Positions 14,309 through 35,909 of a DNA stretch of 43,116 bases are shown piece by piece. The DNA is taken from the IMG/VR virus record IMGVR_UViG_3300010413_000124. The stretch is one strand, 5' to 3'. The stretch's first letter is position 1; the number at the start of each line of letters is the position of its first letter. Origin of the DNA: a virus. Made by a program: the position numbers and the translations under genes. The notes beneath the pieces were generated by a model. It saw nothing but the letters and a program-made list of their open reading frames with translations, did no database searches and was not told the DNA's origin.

Positions 14309-16066
14309 ATGTCTCTGATGAAACGAGTACTGTTTGTGATTTTGTTGGTCTTGGTCGTTAGCTCAACAGCACTGGCCCAGGGCAACAGAAAATTGATAGA
14401 GCGGAGTGACAACTCCGTTTTTTACACCCAAACCAAGCAAGTGCTTGATGTTTCTCCCGTCGTCTTGATCGACGCCGGTGCAACCAAAGGTAGCGGCGTT
14501 TATGTCGGGACTGATCTGGTTTTGACAGCCGCTCATCTCTTCCCGTCTGGCAGTTCTGCCGTTGTCCATTTCCGAAATGGCACACAAATTCGTGGCACAG
14601 TCTGCGCCAAAGACCAATTTTGGGATCAAGCGATGGTGAAGCTCACCGCTATCCCAAAGAACGTCAAACCAGCCCCAATAGCCACTTCCAACCCGAAAAT
14701 CGGGGAAATCGTGTACGCCGTTGGTTATCCGGGCGGTGAAATGCGGCTTGAGGCAATAACTGGCCGCGTGAAAGATTATGCCAAGCCGAAGGGATACAGT
14801 GTACCCCCTGATTGGTTCTTATTCAGCGGTGGTGCTGCCAAGCCTGGTGCTTCTGGCGGACCGATCTTCAACACCAAGGGTGAAGTGATCGGTAGTTTGT
14901 GGGGTTCTCGCACGGTTGAGATGTCCACAACTGGTATCATGTGTGGTCGTACGAGGAGATTTTGTTCTCCTTTTAGTAATCGGATTTCGCAATGGGGTGG
15001 TTGTGGTCCTAGTGGTTGTGGTATCGGTGGTGGTAGACAAGTCCAAATAGTTCCTCGGAATCCTGGTTACTCACAACCTCCTGGTTACTCACAACCAATC
15101 CTAGAGCCACCAATTATTACCGAGCCTCCCGTGGTGACAGAGCCGCCAGTTGTTACTGAACCGACTCCAACGCCAGTTGATATAACTGCCATCGTCGATT
15201 TAGTCATCGACAAAATCCGACAAGATCCTTCTTTGTTGCCGCCAGGCCCACAAGGCCCAGAGGGGCCGCAGGGTCCGGAAGGTCCTCCTGGTCAAATCAC
15301 GTCTGAGCATATTGCGTCGGTCGTGGACCAATTGAAAAACGACGAGGACTTTTTGGCTTCGGTGCGTGGCCCGGCAGGCCCAGAAGGTCCGCCAGGACAA
15401 AATGGTGCAGATGCCACCATTACTCCTGAGTTGTTGGCGACTATGACGGCGGCGATTCTGCAGAATCTTAAGAATGACCCTGGTTTCATAGCTGAGGTTC
15501 AAGGTCCTCCTGGACCAATTGGTCCAGCTGGTCCGGAGGGTCCAGAAGGCCCAATGGGTCAGACTGGTCCAGCGGGGCCTCCTGCTGAGATTACTGCTGA
15601 GCAGCTTGCGAATATGACTGCTGCTATTCTGCACAATTTGAAGAACGACGAGAATATGAGGGGTCCGGAAGGTCCTCCTGGTCCGGAAGGTCCTCCTGGA
15701 ACTCCGGGTACTACGCCTGACTTGTCTGATTTGATTGCGAGGATTGAAGCTTTGGAGAATGGGTCTGGTGATGTAGATATACCGGATAATTCTGAGTACG
15801 AGTGGTCTCATTTGGTACTTGTTGCTAGTTCAGAAGCGGATTATTGGCCTAGATTATCGGGAGAGTTCGAACGCACCAAAGGTTATTGGAATATGTTGCG
15901 TCATATCGAGCCTCCTGAGGATAGGCAGATCGGGCCGCTACCAATTTTGGTGGCCTATACTGCTGGGAAACCGGCACAAAACTGGGTTGGCTTGCGGGAT
16001 GTCTCGCAGGCATTTTCTCAAATCACTCGCGGCGATTATGACGATTTCATCGTTGCCAAAAAGTGA
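14309..16066 (+). CDS. secreted trypsin-like serine protease fused to collagen-like (GPxGPxG) repeats alternating with three ~25-aa helical repeats
   Basis: Signal peptide MSLMKRVLFVILLVLVVSSTALA; TAAHL (His) and GASGGP (Ser) motifs; PGYSQP x2, TEPPVV x2; collagen stretches GPQGPEGPQGPEGPPG etc.; repeats ITSEHIASVVDQLKNDEDF / ITPELLATMTAAILQNLKNDPGF / ITAEQLANMTAAILHNLKNDEN. Confidence 0.6.
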   Translation: MSLMKRVLFVILLVLVVSSTALAQGNRKLIERSDNSVFYTQTKQVLDVSPVVLIDAGATKGSGVYVGTDLVLTAAHLFPSGSSAVVHFRNGTQIRGTVCAKDQFWDQAMVKLTAIPKNVKPAPIATSNPKIGEIVYAVGYPGGEMRLEAITGRVKDYAKPKGYSVPPDWFLFSGGAAKPGASGGPIFNTKGEVIGSLWGSRTVEMSTTGIMCGRTRRFCSPFSNRISQWGGCGPSGCGIGGGRQVQIVPRNPGYSQPPGYSQPILEPPIITEPPVVTEPPVVTEPTPTPVDITAIVDLVIDKIRQDPSLLPPGPQGPEGPQGPEGPPGQITSEHIASVVDQLKNDEDFLASVRGPAGPEGPPGQNGADATITPELLATMTAAILQNLKNDPGFIAEVQGPPGPIGPAGPEGPEGPMGQTGPAGPPAEITAEQLANMTAAILHNLKNDENMRGPEGPPGPEGPPGTPGTTPDLSDLIARIEALENGSGDVDIPDNSEYEWSHLVLVASSEADYWPRLSGEFERTKGYWNMLRHIEPPEDRQIGPLPILVAYTAGKPAQNWVGLRDVSQAFSQITRGDYDDFIVAKK

Positions 16067-16108
16067 TCGCACATTGTAATAACCTGCTATCGCAGGTGGG
16101 AGTTAACA

Positions 16109-16339
16109 ATGCCTCTTGATGCGGAAGTCGCTGATCTGCTGAAAATGGAAGGAATGAGCGGCGCTCGTGAGTCGGCTCGTCTGACTGGCGCTGTGGACCG
16201 GAACCTCGTGCAGGGTTTGGGCGTGGTCAACACGACTCTGATCCAGCAACACGGTTCGACCGCTGATGATGCGGCCACGATGGCTGCTCTGCGTACGGCG
16301 ATCTACGTGCCCGAACTGGGCAACACGAAGACTGTCTAA
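16109..16339 (+). CDS. small conserved protein, paralog A (76 aa)
   Basis: 72/76 aa identical to paralog B, yet the nucleotide sequence differs at many synonymous sites. Confidence 0.6.
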   Translation: MPLDAEVADLLKMEGMSGARESARLTGAVDRNLVQGLGVVNTTLIQQHGSTADDAATMAALRTAIYVPELGNTKTV

Positions 16340-16361
16340 CGCGGACTGATTGTTGCGGATG

Positions 16362-16396
16362 ATGACCTCGCTCGTTCTTAGAGCGAGCGAGGTCAT
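16362..16396 (+). terminator. 13-bp perfect hairpin (ATGACCTCGCTCG / CGAGCGAGGTCAT) after paralog A; weak U-tract
   Basis: Inverted repeat read directly. Confidence 0.45.
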
Positions 16397-16467
16397 TTCC
16401 ACTAATTAGGCAAGGATGGTGAAGATCTTCACTTTTGTTTTTCTCGTTTTACGAGAAGGAGTAAGTT

Positions 16468-16701
16468 ATGCCTCTTGATGCCGAAGTTGCCGACCTTCTG
16501 AAGATGGAAGGAATGGCGGGAGCTAGAGAATCGGCACGTCTGACCGGTGCTGTGGACCGCAATTTGGTCCAGGGCTTGGGTGTCGTGAATACGACCCTCA
16601 TTCAGCAGCACGGCTCGACGGCTGATGATGCTGCAACGTACGCTGCACTGCGCACGGCGATCTACGTGCCGGAATTGGGTAACGCGAAGAAGCCCACGTA
16701 G
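16468..16701 (+). CDS. small conserved protein, paralog B (77 aa)
   Basis: See paralog A; AGGAG 7 nt upstream. Confidence 0.6.
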   Translation: MPLDAEVADLLKMEGMAGARESARLTGAVDRNLVQGLGVVNTTLIQQHGSTADDAATYAALRTAIYVPELGNAKKPT

Positions 16702-16723
16702 GTATTGTTGCGGTAAGACATTC

Positions 16724-16766
16724 GATGGCTGGTGGCTGGGTGGCCAGCTATCAGCCATCGTTTTTA
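16724..16766 (+). terminator. rho-independent terminator (GATGGCTGG...CCAGC..CAGCCATC followed by GTTTTTA)
   Basis: Hairpin plus T-tract. Confidence 0.6.
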
Positions 16767-16783
16767 TCGTAAAGGCGGTTGAA

Positions 16784-16954
16784 ATGGCTGATCCAGATAT
16801 TGCGAACATCTATGACGAAGTAAGGTTGGAAATCGAATCACATCGTGTGATGAGTGCCAACTTCCAACTGTTTTGCGAGGAGACCATTGGCAACCTCGCT
16901 GCGTTGAAGTTACTAAATGATGAGACCGTCGAAGAATCGGTAAAAAACTCATGA
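16784..16954 (+). CDS. small acidic protein (57 aa)
   Basis: AAGGCGG upstream of ATG 16784; ATGA overlap with the next gene. Confidence 0.45.
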   Translation: MADPDIANIYDEVRLEIESHRVMSANFQLFCEETIGNLAALKLLNDETVEESVKNS

Positions 16955-17541
16955 ACGCTCCAACTGTTGCACCCGAAATTCAGCAAGAGGCCGCTAGGTC
17001 GCTGTTGGAGCGGCTTAGTGAAAAGAACGCATTGGTCCGGTTTTTCCGCTACAATGCTAGCGCTAAGCACGGAGTGCCGATTGACCCACCGCCGTCCTAT
17101 TTCACAGGCCGGAGCGAAAGTACAAGTACGACAACTACGACAACCGAACAGCCGCCCAATAATGGCGTCACAGTCATCGATGACACCAAAAACGGTCAAA
17201 CTGGTCAGACCGGGCAAGGTACTACAAAAGTAGACGTCGCACAAACACCGCCAAATATTTCCGTGAACGTTGCTGCACCACCAGCGGCTGTCGCTCCAGC
17301 ATCCAGCGGTAACGACATTCTCAAGGGAATAATCTACACGTTAGCCGCTCTGGCAGCTCTCGGTGGTGCTATCGCACTCGGGTATGCCATGAGTGGCGGT
17401 AAATCCTCAGATCAAACCAAAGCTCCGACGACCACCACTACCACAGATCAACAGCAACAGGTGGAGAAAAGAATCATTCAAAGCCCGTTGCAGTTTTTGG
17501 AGGACATCGGGGCACATCGCCCGGAGATCGTTGATGAGTAG
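16951..17541 (+). CDS. membrane protein with Thr-rich low-complexity tracts and one TM helix
   Basis: TM segment GIIYTLAALAALGGAIALGYAM; STSTTTTTTEQPP and TTTTTTDQQQQ tracts. Confidence 0.5.
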   Translation: MNAPTVAPEIQQEAARSLLERLSEKNALVRFFRYNASAKHGVPIDPPPSYFTGRSESTSTTTTTTEQPPNNGVTVIDDTKNGQTGQTGQGTTKVDVAQTPPNISVNVAAPPAAVAPASSGNDILKGIIYTLAALAALGGAIALGYAMSGGKSSDQTKAPTTTTTTDQQQQVEKRIIQSPLQFLEDIGAHRPEIVDE

Positions 17542-17884
17542 TGATAATCCTACTGAACTTGACCCCGTACCAGACGACGATACTGAAGAAATCAGAGATA
17601 TAGACGCGGAAAAAGAAATATTCCTCCGCAACTTCATGGCCAGGCAACGAGAATTGCAGAAGAAATCTCTGACTGCTGTAGCCAATCTTGCCACCGCCAA
17701 CATGGAATTGATTCTGCGAAGCGGTATAAACGAAGTAGCCGCCAAACGTACTAGAACAGCCACTCTCACGTCCAAGAATGATGTAATTAGTGACTTACTC
17801 AAAGAGCAGGTCAAACAGCGCGTCGATGGGAACGAACAAATTATCGCACGCATCATGAGAGCTGTGGACATCAATGTCGAGTGA
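17534..17884 (+). CDS. hypothetical protein
   Basis: ATG 17534 overlaps the previous stop; ATGA overlap downstream. Confidence 0.45.
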   Translation: MSSDNPTELDPVPDDDTEEIRDIDAEKEIFLRNFMARQRELQKKSLTAVANLATANMELILRSGINEVAAKRTRTATLTSKNDVISDLLKEQVKQRVDGNEQIIARIMRAVDINVE

Positions 17885-18257: not shown

Positions 18258-18683
18258 ATGATTCGGTTACTTTTGTGCACTGCAATAGTGCTCTGTTGCT
18301 GTGGAATGGTGATAGGACAGGATAGTGTACTTCTGCCAACGCCAGCACAGCAAGATCCAGCTGCACCGGCCCCACAAGGCCCGGTAGTAGCACAACCTCC
18401 TGTTGTGGCAGGGCCTGTCGTGGCAGCCCCCGTCATTGCAGGACCACAACCAGTATGGTTCATCCAGAAGAAGTTCTTGGGCCACGGCTACAGAGCTAAA
18501 CCGGGATGGATCAACGTGGGATGTTGTGCAGCACCCGTTGCACCTCCTGTGATTGCCCAGCCGGTCATGCGGACTGTGATGGTGCCAATGCAGGTCCAAA
18601 CTTACGTGTACCGGGCTCCACAGCCGGTAACGGTTGTGCGACCCGAAGTACGCTACCGGGCTGAGACATACTGGCGCTACTGA
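18258..18683 (+). CDS. secreted Pro/Val/Ala-rich protein
   Basis: Signal-like MIRLLLCTAIVLCCCGMVIG; AGGAGG 8 nt upstream; repeats PVVAQPPVVAGPVVAAPVIAGP. Confidence 0.5.
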   Translation: MIRLLLCTAIVLCCCGMVIGQDSVLLPTPAQQDPAAPAPQGPVVAQPPVVAGPVVAAPVIAGPQPVWFIQKKFLGHGYRAKPGWINVGCCAAPVAPPVIAQPVMRTVMVPMQVQTYVYRAPQPVTVVRPEVRYRAETYWRY

Positions 18684-23290: not shown

Positions 23291-23452
23291 ATGGAAGCGA
23301 AACGGACTTGCCTCAGATGTAATAAAAAATTTCTCTCCCAAGGACCTTATAATCGAATCTGCCCCATATGCACCAGAAACCCGCCCAAAGTTCATGCCAA
23401 ATCGGTAGGCTCTCTACCGCGCCGCAAAGGAAAAGTTGACAGAGCAATCTGA
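23291..23452 (+). CDS. small zinc-ribbon protein (CxxC...CxxC)
   Basis: CLRCNKKF...CPICTRNP. Confidence 0.4.
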   Translation: MEAKRTCLRCNKKFLSQGPYNRICPICTRNPPKVHAKSVGSLPRRKGKVDRAI

Positions 23453-23465
23453 TGTAGATAACATC

Positions 23466-24641
23466 ATGCGATGTGTCTACCGTGGCGAACAAACCAAGCA
23501 ACACTTTCTAGCCGGAAAATTAACGACTAGCTATATATGTAGTTGCGAATATATCGATCAGCAACGTTGTACGCTCGAATCTAGCACCCCGCAGTTTGCC
23601 ACCTGTGATGGATGCGAAAGCAGGCTGGAATTCTTTCCGGACCCAGAACTGGATTACACTAAAGACCGCTGGCAATATATCTCTGTTGCCAGGCTCAACC
23701 AAGACACCAAACGATTGTTGTCAGTCATACCATCAGACTGTTCTGGGATAGTTGGTGTGCCACGATCAGGTATGATACCAGCCGCTTTGCTTGCTACCCT
23801 CACGCAACTACCACTATTTGAATTCAGCCTTCAACACGGGCTTTGCCAGTTAGGCGAAGGGAGTCGTAACTGGCTAACTCCTCAGAAAGAGATGACAGGC
23901 CCGTTTTTCGTGGTGGATGATTCAATTTATAGCGGCAACGCCATGTCGCTGACAAGAGCTTCCTTTCCGGTCCCAGCGATATTTGCGGCAATATACGTGA
24001 TCCCAGAAATGGCTCATCTTGCTGATTATTATGTGCAAGAATTGCCTAGTCCGCATTTCTTCGAATGGAATATCTTCAATAATGGAATGATAGACGGCCT
24101 AAGCATGGACCCACGATTGCGTGGTGGCGTTGCCATAGACATGGACGGAATCATCTGCTTTGACCCACCCATGCCTGATATGGATGAAGGACCGATAGCA
24201 GATGCTTACGCCGATTGGATAGATAATGCTCAGCCAAAATATATCCCAAGATTCGCTGCAATTCCGTGCATCATCACTTTCCGCCTGGAGAAATGGCGAG
24301 ATCGAACAATCGAATGGCTACGGAAATACAAGGTGAACTGGCGACGCCTCGTGATGTCCACCCATTCTTCTGTAATAGAACGCAATCGAAACTTAGATGT
24401 GGCTGGGCATAAGGCTAGGAATTTTATTGAATCCGGCTGCTCGTTGATGATTGAATCGGACCCGGCTCAGGCTGAGTTGATTCATCAGTTGTCTTGTCGT
24501 CCGGTTCTGTGTCCGGATTCAGAACGGCTGTATCAGGATCATTGTGATTGGGAGGCTCTACTCGAATTAGATCGGTGGCAGCCAACTCTATCTCATAGTG
24601 CCACGGCTTCTCCTTCGCCAGAGGATGATCCGGAGGAATAA
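23466..24641 (+). CDS. ComF-like zinc-finger plus type-I phosphoribosyltransferase domain fused to a C-terminal HAD-like domain
   Basis: N-terminal CSCEY...CDGC; PRTase motifs IVGVPRSGMIPAALLA and FFVVDDSIYSGNAM; then GVAIDMDGIICFD (HAD motif I). Confidence 0.5.
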   Translation: MRCVYRGEQTKQHFLAGKLTTSYICSCEYIDQQRCTLESSTPQFATCDGCESRLEFFPDPELDYTKDRWQYISVARLNQDTKRLLSVIPSDCSGIVGVPRSGMIPAALLATLTQLPLFEFSLQHGLCQLGEGSRNWLTPQKEMTGPFFVVDDSIYSGNAMSLTRASFPVPAIFAAIYVIPEMAHLADYYVQELPSPHFFEWNIFNNGMIDGLSMDPRLRGGVAIDMDGIICFDPPMPDMDEGPIADAYADWIDNAQPKYIPRFAAIPCIITFRLEKWRDRTIEWLRKYKVNWRRLVMSTHSSVIERNRNLDVAGHKARNFIESGCSLMIESDPAQAELIHQLSCRPVLCPDSERLYQDHCDWEALLELDRWQPTLSHSATASPSPEDDPEE

Positions 24642-34423: not shown

Positions 34424-34482
34424 ATAGTTATGTGCAACAGTCCGGTGCAATTCGGACCGTTTCACTCACGAAGGAGCATAAA

Positions 34483-35814
34483 ATGGCCACAATCAGTACC
34501 ATCAAAGAAGTCATCAACATTTGCCGCGAAGCAAAGGTGACGCCCTTTATCTGGGGCCACCGAGGATTGGGTAAATCCAGCCTCGTCAACCAGGATGCCG
34601 TAGAACACGGCATGGGCTTCATCGATCTGCGTTGTTCGCAGTTGGAAGCCTCCGATATTCGTGGTCTTCCGGATCGTGGCACCGACGGGCGCACCCATTA
34701 CCTGCCGCCAGCTGACATGCCTATCGGCGATATGTCCATCGAACAAATCGAGGAAGACCTGGCGAGCGTCCTGGGGCTTTCCCGAGACAAGGGCGGAAAC
34801 CTGTCCGAGCAGATCGCCAAAACGCTCGCCAAGGCCGATCTGGAGACGGAGCGCAAGTATTACCTGCGGCTCCAGGAACTTCAACCGCATTTCCAGTATG
34901 GCATTCTCTTCATCGACGAAGTCAACCGAGCCCAGGACGACGTTCTGCAAGCCGTTTTCCAATTGGTCTTGGACAACAAGGTCGGCCAGTACGTACTGCC
35001 GCCCGGCTGGCGAATTGTGGCCGCTGGTAACTTCCAGGAAGGATACATGGTTTCTGGCTTCAACGATCCGGCTTTCTTGGATCGATTCTGCCATGTGACT
35101 TTGTCTGCCGGTGAGACGACCCTGGAAGAGTGGGTCAACTACATGAGCGACGTTCATGGCGGAAATGCGGCGGACGTCATCGAATTCGCTTCTCAGAACA
35201 CGAAGCATCTGGATGGCGATATTGCCGGTGAACTCGGCTTTTCGGTCCAGCCTTCACGACGGTCCTGGGAATTGGTGGCGAAAGTGCAAACGGCTTGCCG
35301 CGACAGCAGTTTCTCGCAGACCGCCATCTTCGAGACTTACGCGGGTCTGGTGGGCCGTGAGTTGGCCCAGGCATTCTCGCGCTACAGTTGCCCGGTGAAG
35401 CCTCGCGAATTGATGAAGGACGGCGTGAAGAAGTACGAGGGCAAACTGAAAACGTTGAATCGCAACCAATTGACCGGCCTCATGTGGGGATTGGTCAGCT
35501 TTGCCAAGGCGAAAATCGACGAGGACGATGTTGCTCAGGTCTGCTTGGATTTCGCGAGCTTTATGGTGCATCACGCTCACGACAAAGACGTCGTGGTGGC
35601 TTTTTGCCGAGCCCTGGTGAGCAGCGGAAACCCGAAGGACAACCAGGAAAAGGCTCGGGCAGCGGTGATTGCGAATCCTCGCTTGGCGAACATGATCGCT
35701 CAGTTCAACAAGCAAGTGAAGAACAAGAAAAAGACGTTTGTGGACCGCTTGGTTGAGCGGCCCGAATTGCAGTCGGCTTTGTCGAAGGTGTCTTGGGGTA
35801 CTTTCGGGGACTAG
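34483..35814 (+). CDS. MoxR-like AAA+ ATPase with long C-terminal extension
   Basis: AAGGAG 7 nt upstream of ATG 34483; Walker A GHRGLGKSS; Walker B ILFIDEVNRAQDDVLQAVFQLV; ...RIVAAGNFQEG. Confidence 0.65.
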   Translation: MATISTIKEVINICREAKVTPFIWGHRGLGKSSLVNQDAVEHGMGFIDLRCSQLEASDIRGLPDRGTDGRTHYLPPADMPIGDMSIEQIEEDLASVLGLSRDKGGNLSEQIAKTLAKADLETERKYYLRLQELQPHFQYGILFIDEVNRAQDDVLQAVFQLVLDNKVGQYVLPPGWRIVAAGNFQEGYMVSGFNDPAFLDRFCHVTLSAGETTLEEWVNYMSDVHGGNAADVIEFASQNTKHLDGDIAGELGFSVQPSRRSWELVAKVQTACRDSSFSQTAIFETYAGLVGRELAQAFSRYSCPVKPRELMKDGVKKYEGKLKTLNRNQLTGLMWGLVSFAKAKIDEDDVAQVCLDFASFMVHHAHDKDVVVAFCRALVSSGNPKDNQEKARAAVIANPRLANMIAQFNKQVKNKKKTFVDRLVERPELQSALSKVSWGTFGD

Positions 35815-35822
35815 TCGGCGGT

Positions 35823-35896
35823 GGGCCGGTAGCTCAGTTGGTCAGAGCAGGGGACTCATAATCCCTTTGTCGCGGGTTCAAATCCTGCCCGGCCTA
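35823..35896 (+). tRNA. tRNA-Met (anticodon CAU; elongator-type, or Ile2 if lysidine-modified)
   Basis: GGGCCGG acceptor, D arm GCTCAGTTGGTCAGAGC, anticodon loop CTCATAA, T arm GCGGG-TTCAAAT-CCTGC. Lacks the three G:C pairs of an initiator anticodon stem. Confidence 0.75.
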
Positions 35897-35909
35897 TTTG
35901 GAGGTTAGA

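What the first reader, a model, noticed from the sequence alone, without database searches (positions are those of the whole stretch)
16109..16766. Tandem small paralogs kept almost identical in protein but extensively recoded at synonymous sites, each with its own terminator
ORFs 16109-16339 and 16468-16701 encode 76/77-aa proteins differing at ~4 residues (MPLDAEVADLLKMEGM(S/A)GARESARLTGAVDRNLVQGLGVVNTTLIQQHGSTADDAAT(M/Y)AALRTAIYVPELGN...). The DNA differs at many third-codon positions. That pattern means old duplicates under strong purifying selection, or selection against recombination between the copies. Each copy is followed by a hairpin terminator, which suggests abundant, separately terminated transcripts (for example a virion decoration, scaffold or immunity protein).
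Basis: seen in the sequence. Interest (0 to 1): 0.55.

Follow-up and report, generated by a model that had tools for sequence, protein, structure and literature searches.

The report
Duplicated hyperconserved small phage gene
Two adjacent copies of a tiny, unusually conserved phage gene of unknown function, each with its own RNA hairpins, are an old duplication probably kept for dosage, and the "recoding" is ordinary synonymous drift seen across the whole gene family.

Summary
ORFs 16109-16339 and 16468-16701 encode 76/77-aa proteins that differ at 2 of 68 core residues. 34 codons differ only synonymously (dS about 1.3, dN about 0.05, dN/dS about 0.04).

The pattern is not special to the pair. 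It belongs to an uncharacterised, phage-only family of about 130 proteins (70-95 aa) with no Pfam, PHROG, NCBIfam or PDB match. Orthologues at the same protein distance are just as saturated at synonymous sites. So no selection for recoding needs to be invoked.

Tandem pairs occur in 7 of about 50 genomes, with pS from 0.08 to 0.62. That fits repeated duplication and retention.

The gene always follows the conserved C-terminal domain of an HtrA-like/collagen-like protein (53/61 loci). It is far better conserved than its neighbours (75-85% against 30-50%). AlphaFold predicts one long helix plus a short one.

Best reading: a dosage duplication of a self-contained high-expression cassette for an abundant helical protein that probably assembles with itself or a partner and is functionally tied to the upstream protein. 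The molecular role is unknown. Interest is modest.

The parts
14309..16066 (+). Upstream partner gene (585 aa): signal peptide, HtrA/DegP-like trypsin domain, three helical-segment/collagen-repeat units, and a conserved C-terminal domain.
   Evidence: Pfam Trypsin_2 at 6e-25 and Collagen. NCBIfam HtrA/DegP-type hits. Sequence read.
15719..16063 (+). Conserved ~115-aa C-terminal domain of the upstream protein, which is the constant neighbour of the small gene.
   Evidence: A homologue (35-70% identity) ends within 400 nt upstream of the small gene in 53 of 61 loci, whether or not a trypsin domain is detectable. No Pfam or PDB match.
16082..16097 (+). 5' stem-loop of copy A (ACCTGC-TATC-GCAGGT), directly abutting the SD sequence.
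   Evidence: An equivalent stem with a different sequence occurs in 17/51 loci, against 2.5 expected by shuffling.
16095..16102 (+). Shine-Dalgarno sequence of copy A (GGTGGGAG), 6 nt before the ATG.
   Evidence: Read from the sequence.
16109..16339 (+). Copy A, 76 aa.
   Evidence: Scores 133 bits against the family HMM.
16349..16358 (+). ATTGTTGCGG, a 10-mer shared with the 3' flank of copy B. It is either a remnant of the duplicated unit or a conserved 3' UTR element.
   Evidence: These are the only two exact copies in the window.
16362..16396 (+). 3' hairpin of copy A: 17-bp stem, no U-tract.
   Evidence: z -5.8 to -6.6.
16419..16442 (+). Weak palindrome GTGAAGATCTTCAC followed by TTTTGTTTTT. 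It may act as a second, weak terminator for copy A.
   Evidence: Read from the sequence. Not reported by the consensus scan.
16441..16457 (+). 5' stem-loop of copy B (TTCTCGT-TTT-ACGAGAA), abutting the SD sequence.
16456..16461 (+). Shine-Dalgarno sequence of copy B (AAGGAG), 6 nt before the ATG.
   Evidence: Read from the sequence.
16468..16701 (+). Copy B, 77 aa. It carries Tyr at the nearly invariant Met58 position.
   Evidence: Scores 131.6 bits against the family HMM.
16704..16713 (+). Second copy of ATTGTTGCGG.
16723..16765 (+). 3' hairpin of copy B: 17-bp stem, 4-nt loop, followed by TTTTT. This is a canonical intrinsic-terminator shape.
   Evidence: z -7.4 to -8.3.
16784..16954 (+). 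Syntenic downstream 56-aa gene.
   Evidence: 40-50% identical homologues sit in the same position in related loci.
16951..17541 (+). Syntenic downstream 196-aa protein with a hydrophobic (probably membrane-spanning) segment and conserved N- and C-terminal motifs.

Best explanation
SHOWN. The two ORFs are real tandem paralogues of an uncharacterised family of small (70-95 aa), stand-alone proteins known only from uncultivated phage-like contigs. The family is under extreme purifying selection everywhere. Proteins stay 75-97% identical while synonymous sites are saturated, both between genomes and between the two window copies. The "recoded" look is therefore simply the age of the duplication combined with a frozen protein.

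Each window copy is a complete cassette: a short stem-loop abutting a strong SD sequence, the ORF, and a long GC-rich 3' hairpin. The stems of the two copies share no sequence but keep the structure. The gene is always placed directly after the conserved C-terminal domain of an HtrA-like/collagen-like protein that carries a signal peptide. It is by far the best conserved gene in its neighbourhood. Tandem pairs (never more than two copies) occur in 7 of about 50 genomes and have very different ages.

INFERRED. The 5' and 3' RNA structures make a stable, efficiently translated mRNA segment, so the protein is made in large amounts. Duplicating the whole cassette doubles the dose, and the duplication has been fixed repeatedly for that reason. 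Once the copies have drifted to about 80% DNA identity with no identical run longer than 17 nt, homologous recombination can no longer delete one easily. Old pairs are therefore stable as a by-product, not through selection for recoding.

The protein is predicted to be one 48-residue helix plus a short helix, conserved on all faces from residue 30 to 68. It most likely works as an oligomeric or polymeric assembly subunit that acts in fixed proportion with the upstream protein's C-terminal domain, in the phage's late (virion or envelope-directed) gene block. The exact molecular role is not known.
For: - **Coding and selection:** dN/dS is 0.036-0.040 and differences fall 7/4/36 by codon position.
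- **Family-wide pattern:** orthologue pairs with dN 0.04-0.06 have mean pS 0.61 (n=24); L038/L040 have dN 0.007 and pS 0.69. The window copies are 75-81% identical in DNA to family members from any genome, about the same as to each other.
- **Family size and nature:** 129 word-indexed hits, and 43 clusters at 50% identity among 1.8 billion representatives, all 70-95 aa. No Pfam hit even at E=10, and no PHROG, NCBIfam or PDB match.
- **Relative conservation:** the small protein is 68-86% identical where the protease, p56, p196 and p106 are 30-50%.
- **Linkage:** the upstream C-terminal domain is adjacent in 53/61 loci. The upstream stop codon and the small-gene start are 1-7 nt apart or overlapping in L001, L005, L069 and L070.
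- **3' hairpin:** 29/52 copies have z<-3, against 1/47 control segments. Both copies have one in the window, L026 and L027.
- **5' stem-loop:** 17/51 loci have a perfect stem of 5 bp or more ending 8-16 nt before the ATG, against a mean of 2.5 and a maximum of 7 in 300 shuffles. The stem sequences covary.
- **Pairs:** 7 genomes have tandem pairs, with pS 0.08-0.62 and dN/dS 0.04-0.08 for the five complete pairs with pS at or above 0.49.
- **Old, inherited two-copy state:** L016 groups with L026 copy 2 at 98% bootstrap. Copy-1 and copy-2 orthologues of L026 and L027 group by copy, not by genome (43-49%). The C-terminal tails agree with this grouping.
- **No gene-conversion tract:**
- **Structure:** AlphaFold2 with 128 sequences gives pLDDT 86, with helices at 5-52 and 55-64. 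Conservation is 0.79 for residues 30-68, 0.57 for residues 1-29 and 0.22 for the tail.
- **Reality of the locus:** identical in five other assemblies.
Against: - There are no expression or proteome data, so abundance is inferred only from RNA structure, the SD sequence and the duplication.
- GC3 of the two copies (0.64 and 0.60) is only slightly above most neighbours (0.40-0.69), so codon bias gives weak support.
- The first hairpin lacks a U-tract, and no promoter was found. The hairpins could therefore be plain operon-end terminators rather than stabilisers.
- Most genomes manage with one copy.
- The window's own A and B cluster together only weakly (37-70% bootstrap), so it is unresolved whether this pair shares the L026/L027 duplication.
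- The upstream protein has a signal peptide, while the small protein has none. A direct physical partnership would need an explanation. In L001 a membrane-spanning helix places the collagen/C-terminal part on the other side of the membrane from the protease.
- The monomer model of a single long helix says nothing directly about oligomerisation, and no fold match exists.
Confidence: 0.6

Rival explanations
1. Synonymous divergence between the copies was itself selected ("recoding") to stop homologous recombination from deleting or homogenising the tandem repeat.
For: The longest identical run between the copies is only 17 nt and DNA identity is about 80%. Most surviving pairs are strongly diverged, with pS 0.5-0.6.
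Against: Paralogue pS equals that of orthologues at the same dN (0.61 vs a mean of 0.61). The spacing of differences is as expected by chance (P=0.68). Young pairs with pS 0.08 and 0.29 exist. Survivorship of drifted pairs explains the data without directional selection.
Confidence: 0.08
2. The two copies are no longer redundant. They have subfunctionalised and form an obligate A/B hetero-oligomer, or act at different times. Both are therefore kept by selection on function rather than on dose.
For: Copy B has Tyr at Met58, a position that is Met in at least 90% of the family, reached by changing all three bases. In L026/L027 the copy-1 and copy-2 lineages have distinct tails and residue 48 (H vs A) and have been kept apart for a long time. 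Each copy has its own 5' and 3' RNA elements.
Against: Most genomes have one copy. Differences between copies are not consistent across genomes: Y58 is unique to the window, and A48 occurs only in the L026/L027/L016 second copies. Pairs of very different ages suggest repeated birth of pairs rather than one ancient specialised pair.
Confidence: 0.15
3. The small protein is an assembly chaperone or adaptor for the trimeric collagen-like protein encoded just upstream. This would be analogous to tail-fibre assembly proteins, which are encoded directly downstream of fibre genes and travel with the fibre's C-terminal domain.
For: Strict adjacency to the upstream C-terminal domain regardless of the N-terminal architecture (53/61). 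Frequent near-overlap of the upstream stop and the small-gene start. A small all-helical prediction. In L069 the pair lies between head-completion and tail/baseplate genes.
Against: Chaperones are usually less conserved than their clients, but here the small protein is 75-85% identical against 35-70% for the domain. Chaperones rarely need dosage duplication or dedicated terminators. The upstream protein appears to be exported (signal peptide).
Confidence: 0.15
4. The upstream C-terminal domain is a toxic or effector domain, and the small genes are its cognate immunity proteins. This would resemble colicin or polymorphic-toxin loci, which also carry tandem immunity genes and a terminator after them.
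For: The architecture matches: an exported protein with a modular N-terminus, a constant C-terminal domain, and an immediately downstream small gene that is sometimes duplicated.
Against: Toxin/immunity pairs diversify rapidly. This pair is under extreme purifying selection (dN/dS 0.04) and is nearly invariant across distant genomes. No toxin family was matched. The locus is a conserved syntenic core of the phage late region, not a variable island.
Confidence: 0.05
5. The block from the exported HtrA-like protease through the small protein, the 56-aa protein and the membrane protein to a signal-peptide protein is a lysis or envelope-remodelling cassette. The small protein would be its regulator.
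For: Signal peptide on the protease, a membrane protein at 16951-17541 and a signal-peptide protein at 18258-18683. In L070 the block sits just upstream of terminase and portal genes. In L069 it sits between head and tail genes. These are positions where lambda-like and P2-like phages keep lysis genes (own knowledge; contexts).
Against: No holin, endolysin or spanin family was detected. Lysis regulators are typically poorly conserved and not abundant. The role of collagen repeats in a lysin is unclear.
Confidence: 0.1

Closest known systems
Tandem multicopy genes for small abundant structural polypeptides in bacteria (gvpA copies in cyanobacterial gas-vesicle clusters; pufB/pufA light-harvesting genes with flanking mRNA hairpins). 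Comparison from own knowledge.
   Same: Very small, highly conserved assembly subunits encoded by adjacent near-identical genes. Stable mRNA hairpins next to the small genes raise their output relative to neighbouring cistrons. The copies differ mostly at synonymous sites.
   Different: No sequence relationship: there is no Pfam hit, including gas-vesicle families, even at E=10. The setting here is a phage. The assembly formed, if any, is unknown.
Phage tail-fibre assembly proteins and T4 gp57A-type small helical chaperones (own knowledge).
   Same: A small helical protein. Apart from gp57A, such genes typically sit directly downstream of a trimeric fibre-like protein and travel with that protein's C-terminal domain.
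   Different: The small protein is much more conserved than the presumed client. It is duplicated and has its own RNA stability or terminator elements. The client has a signal peptide and a protease domain. No homology could be tested or found.
   Same: Small, presumably abundant, and encoded among late genes.
   Different: No sequence or fold match to any viral or PDB structure. The predicted shape is a single long helix, not a compact fold like those of known decoration proteins. The gene is not placed next to the major capsid gene in L069 or L070.
Morons of lambdoid phages: autonomous promoter-gene-terminator inserts in late operons (own knowledge).
   Same: A small gene inside a co-directional late block, followed by its own hairpin terminator.
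   Different: No promoter was detected, and there is often no room for one. The gene is a conserved, syntenic core component in about 50 genomes rather than a sporadic insert.
Polyubiquitin-type repeats: an identical protein with divergent synonymous sites (own knowledge).
   Same: A hyperconserved protein of about 76 aa. Tandem copies are identical in protein but not in DNA. A variable C-terminal extension follows a conserved end.
   Different: These are separate genes, not a fused polyprotein. The predicted fold is helical, not a beta-grasp. There is no conjugation machinery nearby. The resemblance is only in the evolutionary pattern.

Membership tests
Tandem paralogue pair maintained by purifying selection | Two homologous, same-strand, adjacent ORFs. 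| tested here: met
   16109-16339 and 16468-16701. Direct repeat of 233 nt at 80% identity. Only two family-HMM hits in the window.
Tandem paralogue pair maintained by purifying selection | dN/dS far below 1, with substantial dS. | tested here: met
   dS 1.27-1.31, dN 0.047-0.050, dN/dS 0.036-0.040.
Tandem paralogue pair maintained by purifying selection | Both copies intact, with translation signals and the family's invariant residues. | tested here: met
   Both have an ATG, an SD sequence 6 nt upstream and all invariant columns (Q35, G36, V39, L44, D53, D54, R62, P68). Copy B has Y at the nearly invariant M58.
Intrinsic (Rho-independent) terminator | GC-rich stem-loop directly 3' of the gene. 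| tested here: met
   17-bp stems after both copies, z -5.8 and -8.3.
Intrinsic (Rho-independent) terminator | U-tract immediately after the stem. | tested here: inconclusive
   Copy B has TTTTT and was found by the scan. Copy A has TTTCC and was not found. A weak palindrome plus a T-run lies 22 nt further on. Many family hairpins also lack U-tracts.
Intrinsic (Rho-independent) terminator | Transcripts end there in vivo. | not testable with these tools
   No transcript data are available.
Phage moron | Own promoter upstream of the gene. | tested here: not met
   No sigma-70-like site in 15500-17500. In many loci only 1-45 nt separate the upstream stop codon from the start. Non-sigma-70 promoters are not covered by the scan.
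Phage moron | Sporadic presence in otherwise collinear genomes. | tested here: not met
   Conserved synteny from the protease C-terminal domain through the small gene, p56 and p196 to p106 across related loci.
Known capsid decoration/cement or scaffold protein families | Sequence match to a described family. | tested here: not met
   No Pfam hit (E up to 10), no significant PHROG hit (all 128 family members scanned; only five isolated single-member matches, best E 1e-4, four of them to unnamed families), no NCBIfam hit and no significant PDB sequence hit (two noise-level matches, E 1.6 and 2.3).
Known capsid decoration/cement or scaffold protein families | Fold match to a known viral structure. 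| tested here: not met
   Foldseek against BFVD gave a best E of 6.8. Against PDB there were no hits. The model has pLDDT 86.
Known capsid decoration/cement or scaffold protein families | Presence in purified virions or proheads. | not testable with these tools
   No cultured relative: no match in 50,697 phage records.
Toxin C-terminal domain with cognate immunity gene(s) | Small gene immediately downstream of the C-terminal domain of a large exported protein. | tested here: met
   53/61 loci. Signal peptides on the upstream proteins.
Toxin C-terminal domain with cognate immunity gene(s) | Rapid diversification of the domain/immunity pair. | tested here: not met
   dN/dS is 0.04. The small protein is 60-97% identical across the family.
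RiPP precursor peptides in tandem | Conserved leader followed by a variable core of useful length with modifiable residues, plus maturation enzymes nearby. | tested here: not met
   The variable tail after the invariant P68 is only 2-10 residues (for example EK, or ELGNTKTV) with no Cys or Ser/Thr pattern. No modifying-enzyme family is found in the neighbourhood.
Gas-vesicle GvpA-type small structural protein | Match to the Pfam gas-vesicle protein family. | tested here: not met
   No Pfam match at E up to 10 for five family members.

The most novel reading that the evidence does not exclude
The hyperconserved 76-aa helix is the subunit of a so far undescribed phage-made polymer or coat, or a stoichiometric tag. 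It would be built together with the exported HtrA-like/collagen-like protein. The A/B pair in this phage would be a step towards a two-subunit (hetero-oligomeric) version, as hinted by Met58->Tyr in copy B. This would define a new, widespread module in uncultivated sediment and groundwater phages.
Probability: 0.12. Interest if true: 0.6.

Novelty: new member of a known kind. Interest (0 to 1): 0.3.

Why it matters
As an evolutionary pattern it is ordinary: a tandem duplication of a strongly constrained gene, with no sign of special recoding.

What is worth keeping is the gene family itself. It is a tiny orphan protein that is the best conserved gene in its neighbourhood across about 50 divergent uncultivated phage genomes. 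It is always tied to the C-terminal domain of an HtrA-like/collagen-like exported protein. It is framed by conserved 5' and 3' RNA structures and has been duplicated repeatedly.

Such extreme constraint on a single long helix usually marks a densely packed assembly or a conserved target. The family is therefore a reasonable candidate for structural or functional study once a host system exists. It also serves as a warning for scans: "identical protein, recoded DNA" between paralogues should be compared with orthologues before selection on the DNA is proposed.

Tried and rejected
- **Family and structure searches on the small protein found nothing.** This covers Pfam (also at E=10), PHROGs (both window copies and all 128 aligned members), NCBIfam, a PDB sequence profile, and Foldseek against BFVD and PDB. 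The AFDB50 library was unavailable.
- **Rfam on 15800-17100** gave only spurious miRNA-like hits on the second hairpin.
- **tblastn against 50,697 cultured-phage records** gave no match for the small protein or the protease.
- **The genome-contig scan** found only one distant hit, on a MAG contig, so no host could be assigned.
- **RNAalifold on an ungapped-style MAFFT alignment of 34 upstream regions** predicted no consensus pair, because stem positions shift by 1-3 nt. I replaced it with a position-windowed stem count against shuffles.
- **A perfect-stem counter for 3' hairpins** was too strict, since it breaks on G-U pairs. I replaced it with MFE z-scores and a control.
- **A gene-conversion tract test** was negative.
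- **Bootstrapped NJ trees** could not resolve whether the window pair shares the L026/L027 duplication.
- **A homology search with the upstream C-terminal domain** returned only 2 proteins.
- **Searches for window gene homologues in viral contigs** (p416 and the MgsA-like ATPase) hit other contigs and did not help to compare conservation within the same genomes.
- **A literature search** for collagen/trypsin phage proteins gave nothing relevant.
- **Ideas considered and dropped:** RiPP precursor (tail too short), GvpA, moron, a flagellin-like "DDAA" motif (no Pfam support), and a protease inhibitor (conservation far exceeds that of the protease).
Full report
**1. Observation**

ORF A (16109-16339, 76 aa) and ORF B (16468-16701, 77 aa) lie in tandem on the + strand. 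Codon by codon, 37 codons are identical, 34 differ only synonymously and 6 differ in amino acid (including A's stop codon aligned against a sense codon of B). Differences fall 7/4/36 on codon positions 1/2/3.

In the conserved 68-residue core only S17A and M58Y differ. The remaining differences are in the C-terminal tails. Nei-Gojobori estimates are dS 1.27-1.31, dN 0.047-0.050 and dN/dS 0.036-0.040.

The repeated unit starts 10 nt before the ATG (16099-16331 vs 16458-16690, 80% identity). An identical 10-mer, ATTGTTGCGG, follows each stop codon.

Both copies are followed by a 17-bp hairpin: dG -38 and -42 kcal/mol, z -5.8 and -8.3 against shuffles. Only the second has a U-run and is called by the terminator scan. 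The first is followed by TTTCC, then by a weak palindrome plus T4GT5 at 16419-16442.

The 2.2-kb region around the pair is 100% identical in three other public assemblies and differs by a single base in two more. The arrangement is therefore real.

**2. The family**

The small protein has no match in Pfam (even at E=10), PHROGs, NCBIfam or PDB sequences. It does have 129 homologues in the 5.8-billion-protein collection, all hypothetical proteins of 60-94 aa from metagenomes. A profile search of 1.8 billion representatives finds only 43 clusters, all 70-95 aa and never fused to anything else. No cultured phage carries it. One distant copy lies on a MAG contig.

The alignment shows a moderately variable N-terminal third, then a nearly invariant block (DRNLVQGLGVVNTTLIQQHGxTADDAATMAALRTAIxVP, residues 30-68), then a short hypervariable tail of 2-10 residues.

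With 128 sequences, AlphaFold2 predicts a single long helix (5-52) and a short helix (55-64) at mean pLDDT 86. The 40-sequence model gave the same topology at pLDDT 66. Foldseek finds nothing comparable in BFVD or PDB.

**3. The "recoding" is family-wide, not specific to the paralogues**

I extracted 54 distinct coding sequences from 70 related loci and computed all pairwise dN and pS values over the 53 that align in register.
- Pairs from different genomes with dN 0.04-0.06 (n=24) have mean pS 0.61 (range 0.27-0.81). The window pair has pS 0.61.
- L038 and L040 differ by dN 0.007 yet have pS 0.69.
- L031-L033 encode a protein 97% identical to copy A over residues 1-69 from DNA that is only 78% identical.
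- At the DNA level the two window copies are about as similar to each other (80%) as to copies in any other genome (70-81%).
- The differences between A and B are scattered as chance predicts: the longest identical run is 17 nt, the permutation mean is 18, and P=0.68. There is no sign of a conversion tract or of unusually even spacing.

The simple reading is an old duplication in a protein that is almost frozen. Nothing calls for selection on the DNA itself.

**4. Copy number and age of duplications**

A family HMM run on six-frame translations of all loci finds tandem pairs in seven distinct genomes: the window, L026, L027, L001, L071/L072, L041 and L050. It never finds more than two copies, and the two are always adjacent.

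| Pair | pS |
|---|---|
| L041 (47 codons available) | 0.08 |
| L050 | 0.29 |
| L071 | 0.49 |
| L026 | 0.50 |
| L001 | 0.53 |
| window | 0.61 |
| L027 | 0.62 |

For the five complete pairs with pS at or above 0.49, dN/dS is 0.04-0.08.

In bootstrapped NJ trees, L016 groups with the second copy of L026 (98%). The first copies of L026 and L027 group together (43%), and the second copies group with L016 (49%). The C-terminal tails agree (ELGNAKS in the first copies, longer K/P-containing tails in the second copies). In that lineage the two-copy state was therefore inherited and kept while the adjacent protease domain diverged to about 47% identity.

The window's A and B group with each other only weakly (37% on all sites, 70% on positions 1+2). 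Whether this pair shares that duplication or arose separately is unresolved. The L001, L071, L050 and L041 pairs look independent.

Repeated origin and long retention argue that a second copy is often useful, and dosage is the simplest reason. The rare Met58->Tyr change in copy B leaves room for some functional divergence. All three bases are changed at a position that is Met in at least 90% of the family.

**5. Expression anatomy**

A strong 3' structure within 80 nt of the stop codon is a family trait. 29 of 52 copies have z<-3 (median dG -30 kcal/mol), against 1 of 47 control segments taken 400 nt further on. The stems differ completely in sequence between loci. In the window, L026 and L027, both copies have such a hairpin. 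In L001 and L050 the first copy does not.

This is a 4-7-bp stem-loop whose 3' arm ends 8-16 nt before the ATG, right against the SD sequence. Perfect stems of 5 bp or more occur in 17 of 51 loci, against 2.5 expected and a maximum of 7 in 300 shuffles. The stem sequences covary: ACCTGC/GCAGGT, TTCTCGT/ACGAGAA, CCCGC/GCGGG, TTCTCT/AGAGAA, TACCGC/GCGGTA and others. Both window copies have one (16082-16097 and 16441-16457), followed by GGGAG and AAGGAG 6 nt before the start.

No sigma-70-type promoter is found. In many loci the upstream stop codon is only 1-45 nt away, or overlaps the start. The gene is therefore probably co-transcribed with the upstream gene.

I infer that the 5' and 3' structures bracket a stable, well-translated mRNA segment. 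This is how small abundant subunits are over-produced from polycistronic messages in other systems (own knowledge: pufBA, filamentous-phage gene VIII). In the window the whole cassette, not just the ORF, exists twice. This step is inferred, since no transcript data were available.

**6. Genomic context**

The upstream gene (14309-16066) encodes several parts in order:
- a signal peptide;
- an HtrA/DegP-like trypsin domain (Pfam Trypsin_2, 6e-25; NCBIfam HtrA-type hits);
- three units of a helical segment plus collagen G-X-Y repeats;
- a C-terminal domain of about 115 aa with no known family.

That C-terminal domain (35-70% identical) ends directly upstream of the small gene in 53 of 61 loci. 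This includes loci where the N-terminal part is different, or where the domain is a separate 190-aa protein (L005, L069).

Downstream, a 56-aa protein, a roughly 190-aa membrane protein and a roughly 100-aa protein are syntenic but only 30-50% identical. The small protein is 68-86% identical in the same genome pairs.

In L069 the block lies between a lambda-E-type capsid gene with head-completion genes and tail/baseplate genes. In L070 it lies upstream of terminase, portal and capsid genes. In the window it is followed by a protein related to a T4-like cyanophage "virion structural protein". The block therefore belongs to the late region. Whether it is virion-associated or envelope/lysis-directed cannot be decided.

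**7. Most likely mechanism and rivals**

My best explanation has three parts.
- Shown: this is a tandem duplication of a complete expression cassette for an extremely constrained small helical protein.
- Inferred: the protein is made in large amounts, and it acts as an oligomeric or polymeric partner of the upstream protein's C-terminal domain.
- Inferred: the duplication is kept for dose, and it is stable because drift has removed the recombination substrate.

Conservation on all helix faces from residue 30 to 68 fits a densely packed assembly or a multi-partner interface.

Rivals are listed with their own tests:
- selected recoding (little support);
- A/B subfunctionalisation (possible, on the strength of Y58);
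- a fibre-chaperone-like role (fits the gene order but not the conservation or the dosage);
- a toxin-domain/immunity pair (fits the architecture but contradicts the purifying selection);
- a lysis-module regulator (fits the exported and membrane neighbours, but no family support).

**8. Comparison with known systems and verdict**

In what it works like, the nearest analogues are tandem gene copies for small abundant assembly subunits with stabilising mRNA hairpins. In gene order, the nearest analogue is the pairing of a fibre C-terminal domain with a downstream assembly protein.

In membership it belongs to no described family. Every sequence and fold test was negative.

The protein family and its strict linkage to the HtrA-like/collagen-like protein are uncharacterised and mildly interesting.

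Overall interest is 0.3. Novelty: a new member of a known kind.

Noticed in passing
window 3998-6631 (+): An 877-aa ORF carries a Major Vault Protein shoulder domain (PF11978, E 1.6e-17) and a weak vault-repeat hit. This is unusual for a phage-like contig.
   Followed up: no
window 16082-16097 and 16441-16457; about 17 related loci: A small stem-loop abutting the SD sequence of the small gene is conserved in position, with covarying stem sequences across genomes (17/51 against 2.5 expected). It may be an mRNA 5' stabiliser, a processing site or a translational element.
   Followed up: partly
window 14309-16066 (+); L001 4368-5999: The upstream protein combines a signal peptide, an HtrA-like protease, three repeats of a helical segment (ITxExLAxMTAAILxNLKND) plus collagen G-X-Y runs, and an unknown conserved C-terminal domain. 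In L001 a membrane-spanning helix separates the protease from the collagen/C-terminal part.
   Followed up: partly
window 915-1580 (-) and 7524-8378 (+): Two sulfotransferase-like ORFs (phrog_3347; Pfam Sulfotransfer_1/3). They may be glycan or host-surface modification genes.
   Followed up: no
window 891-974 and 35822-35897: tRNA-Leu(TAA) and tRNA-Met(CAT) genes. The tRNA-Leu overlaps the 3' end of the minus-strand ORF 915-1580.
   Followed up: no
window 34432-35814 and 41406-42737: An AAA-type ATPase (phrog_1297) and a DUF2201 metallopeptidase/VWA-like protein. PHROGs labels the second one an HNH endonuclease, but Pfam does not support that name.
   Followed up: no
window 23436-24641 (+): A 401-aa ORF with a weak xanthine phosphoribosyltransferase-like stretch (NCBIfam E 2.6e-9, below the curated cut-off).
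   Followed up: no
L041 1-415; L050 3995-4557: Much younger tandem pairs of the same small gene (pS 0.08 and 0.29). Near-identical DNA copies can therefore exist in this family.
   Followed up: yes
window 16349-16358 and 16704-16713: An identical 10-mer, ATTGTTGCGG, lies just 3' of both stop codons, although the surrounding non-coding sequence has diverged. These are the only two exact copies in the window. It was not seen in the downstream flanks of the 19 related copies inspected by eye.
   Followed up: partly
window 17393-17884 (+): The 163-aa ORF called from a GTG overlaps the end of the 196-aa membrane-protein gene by about 150 nt. The real start is probably further downstream.
   Followed up: no
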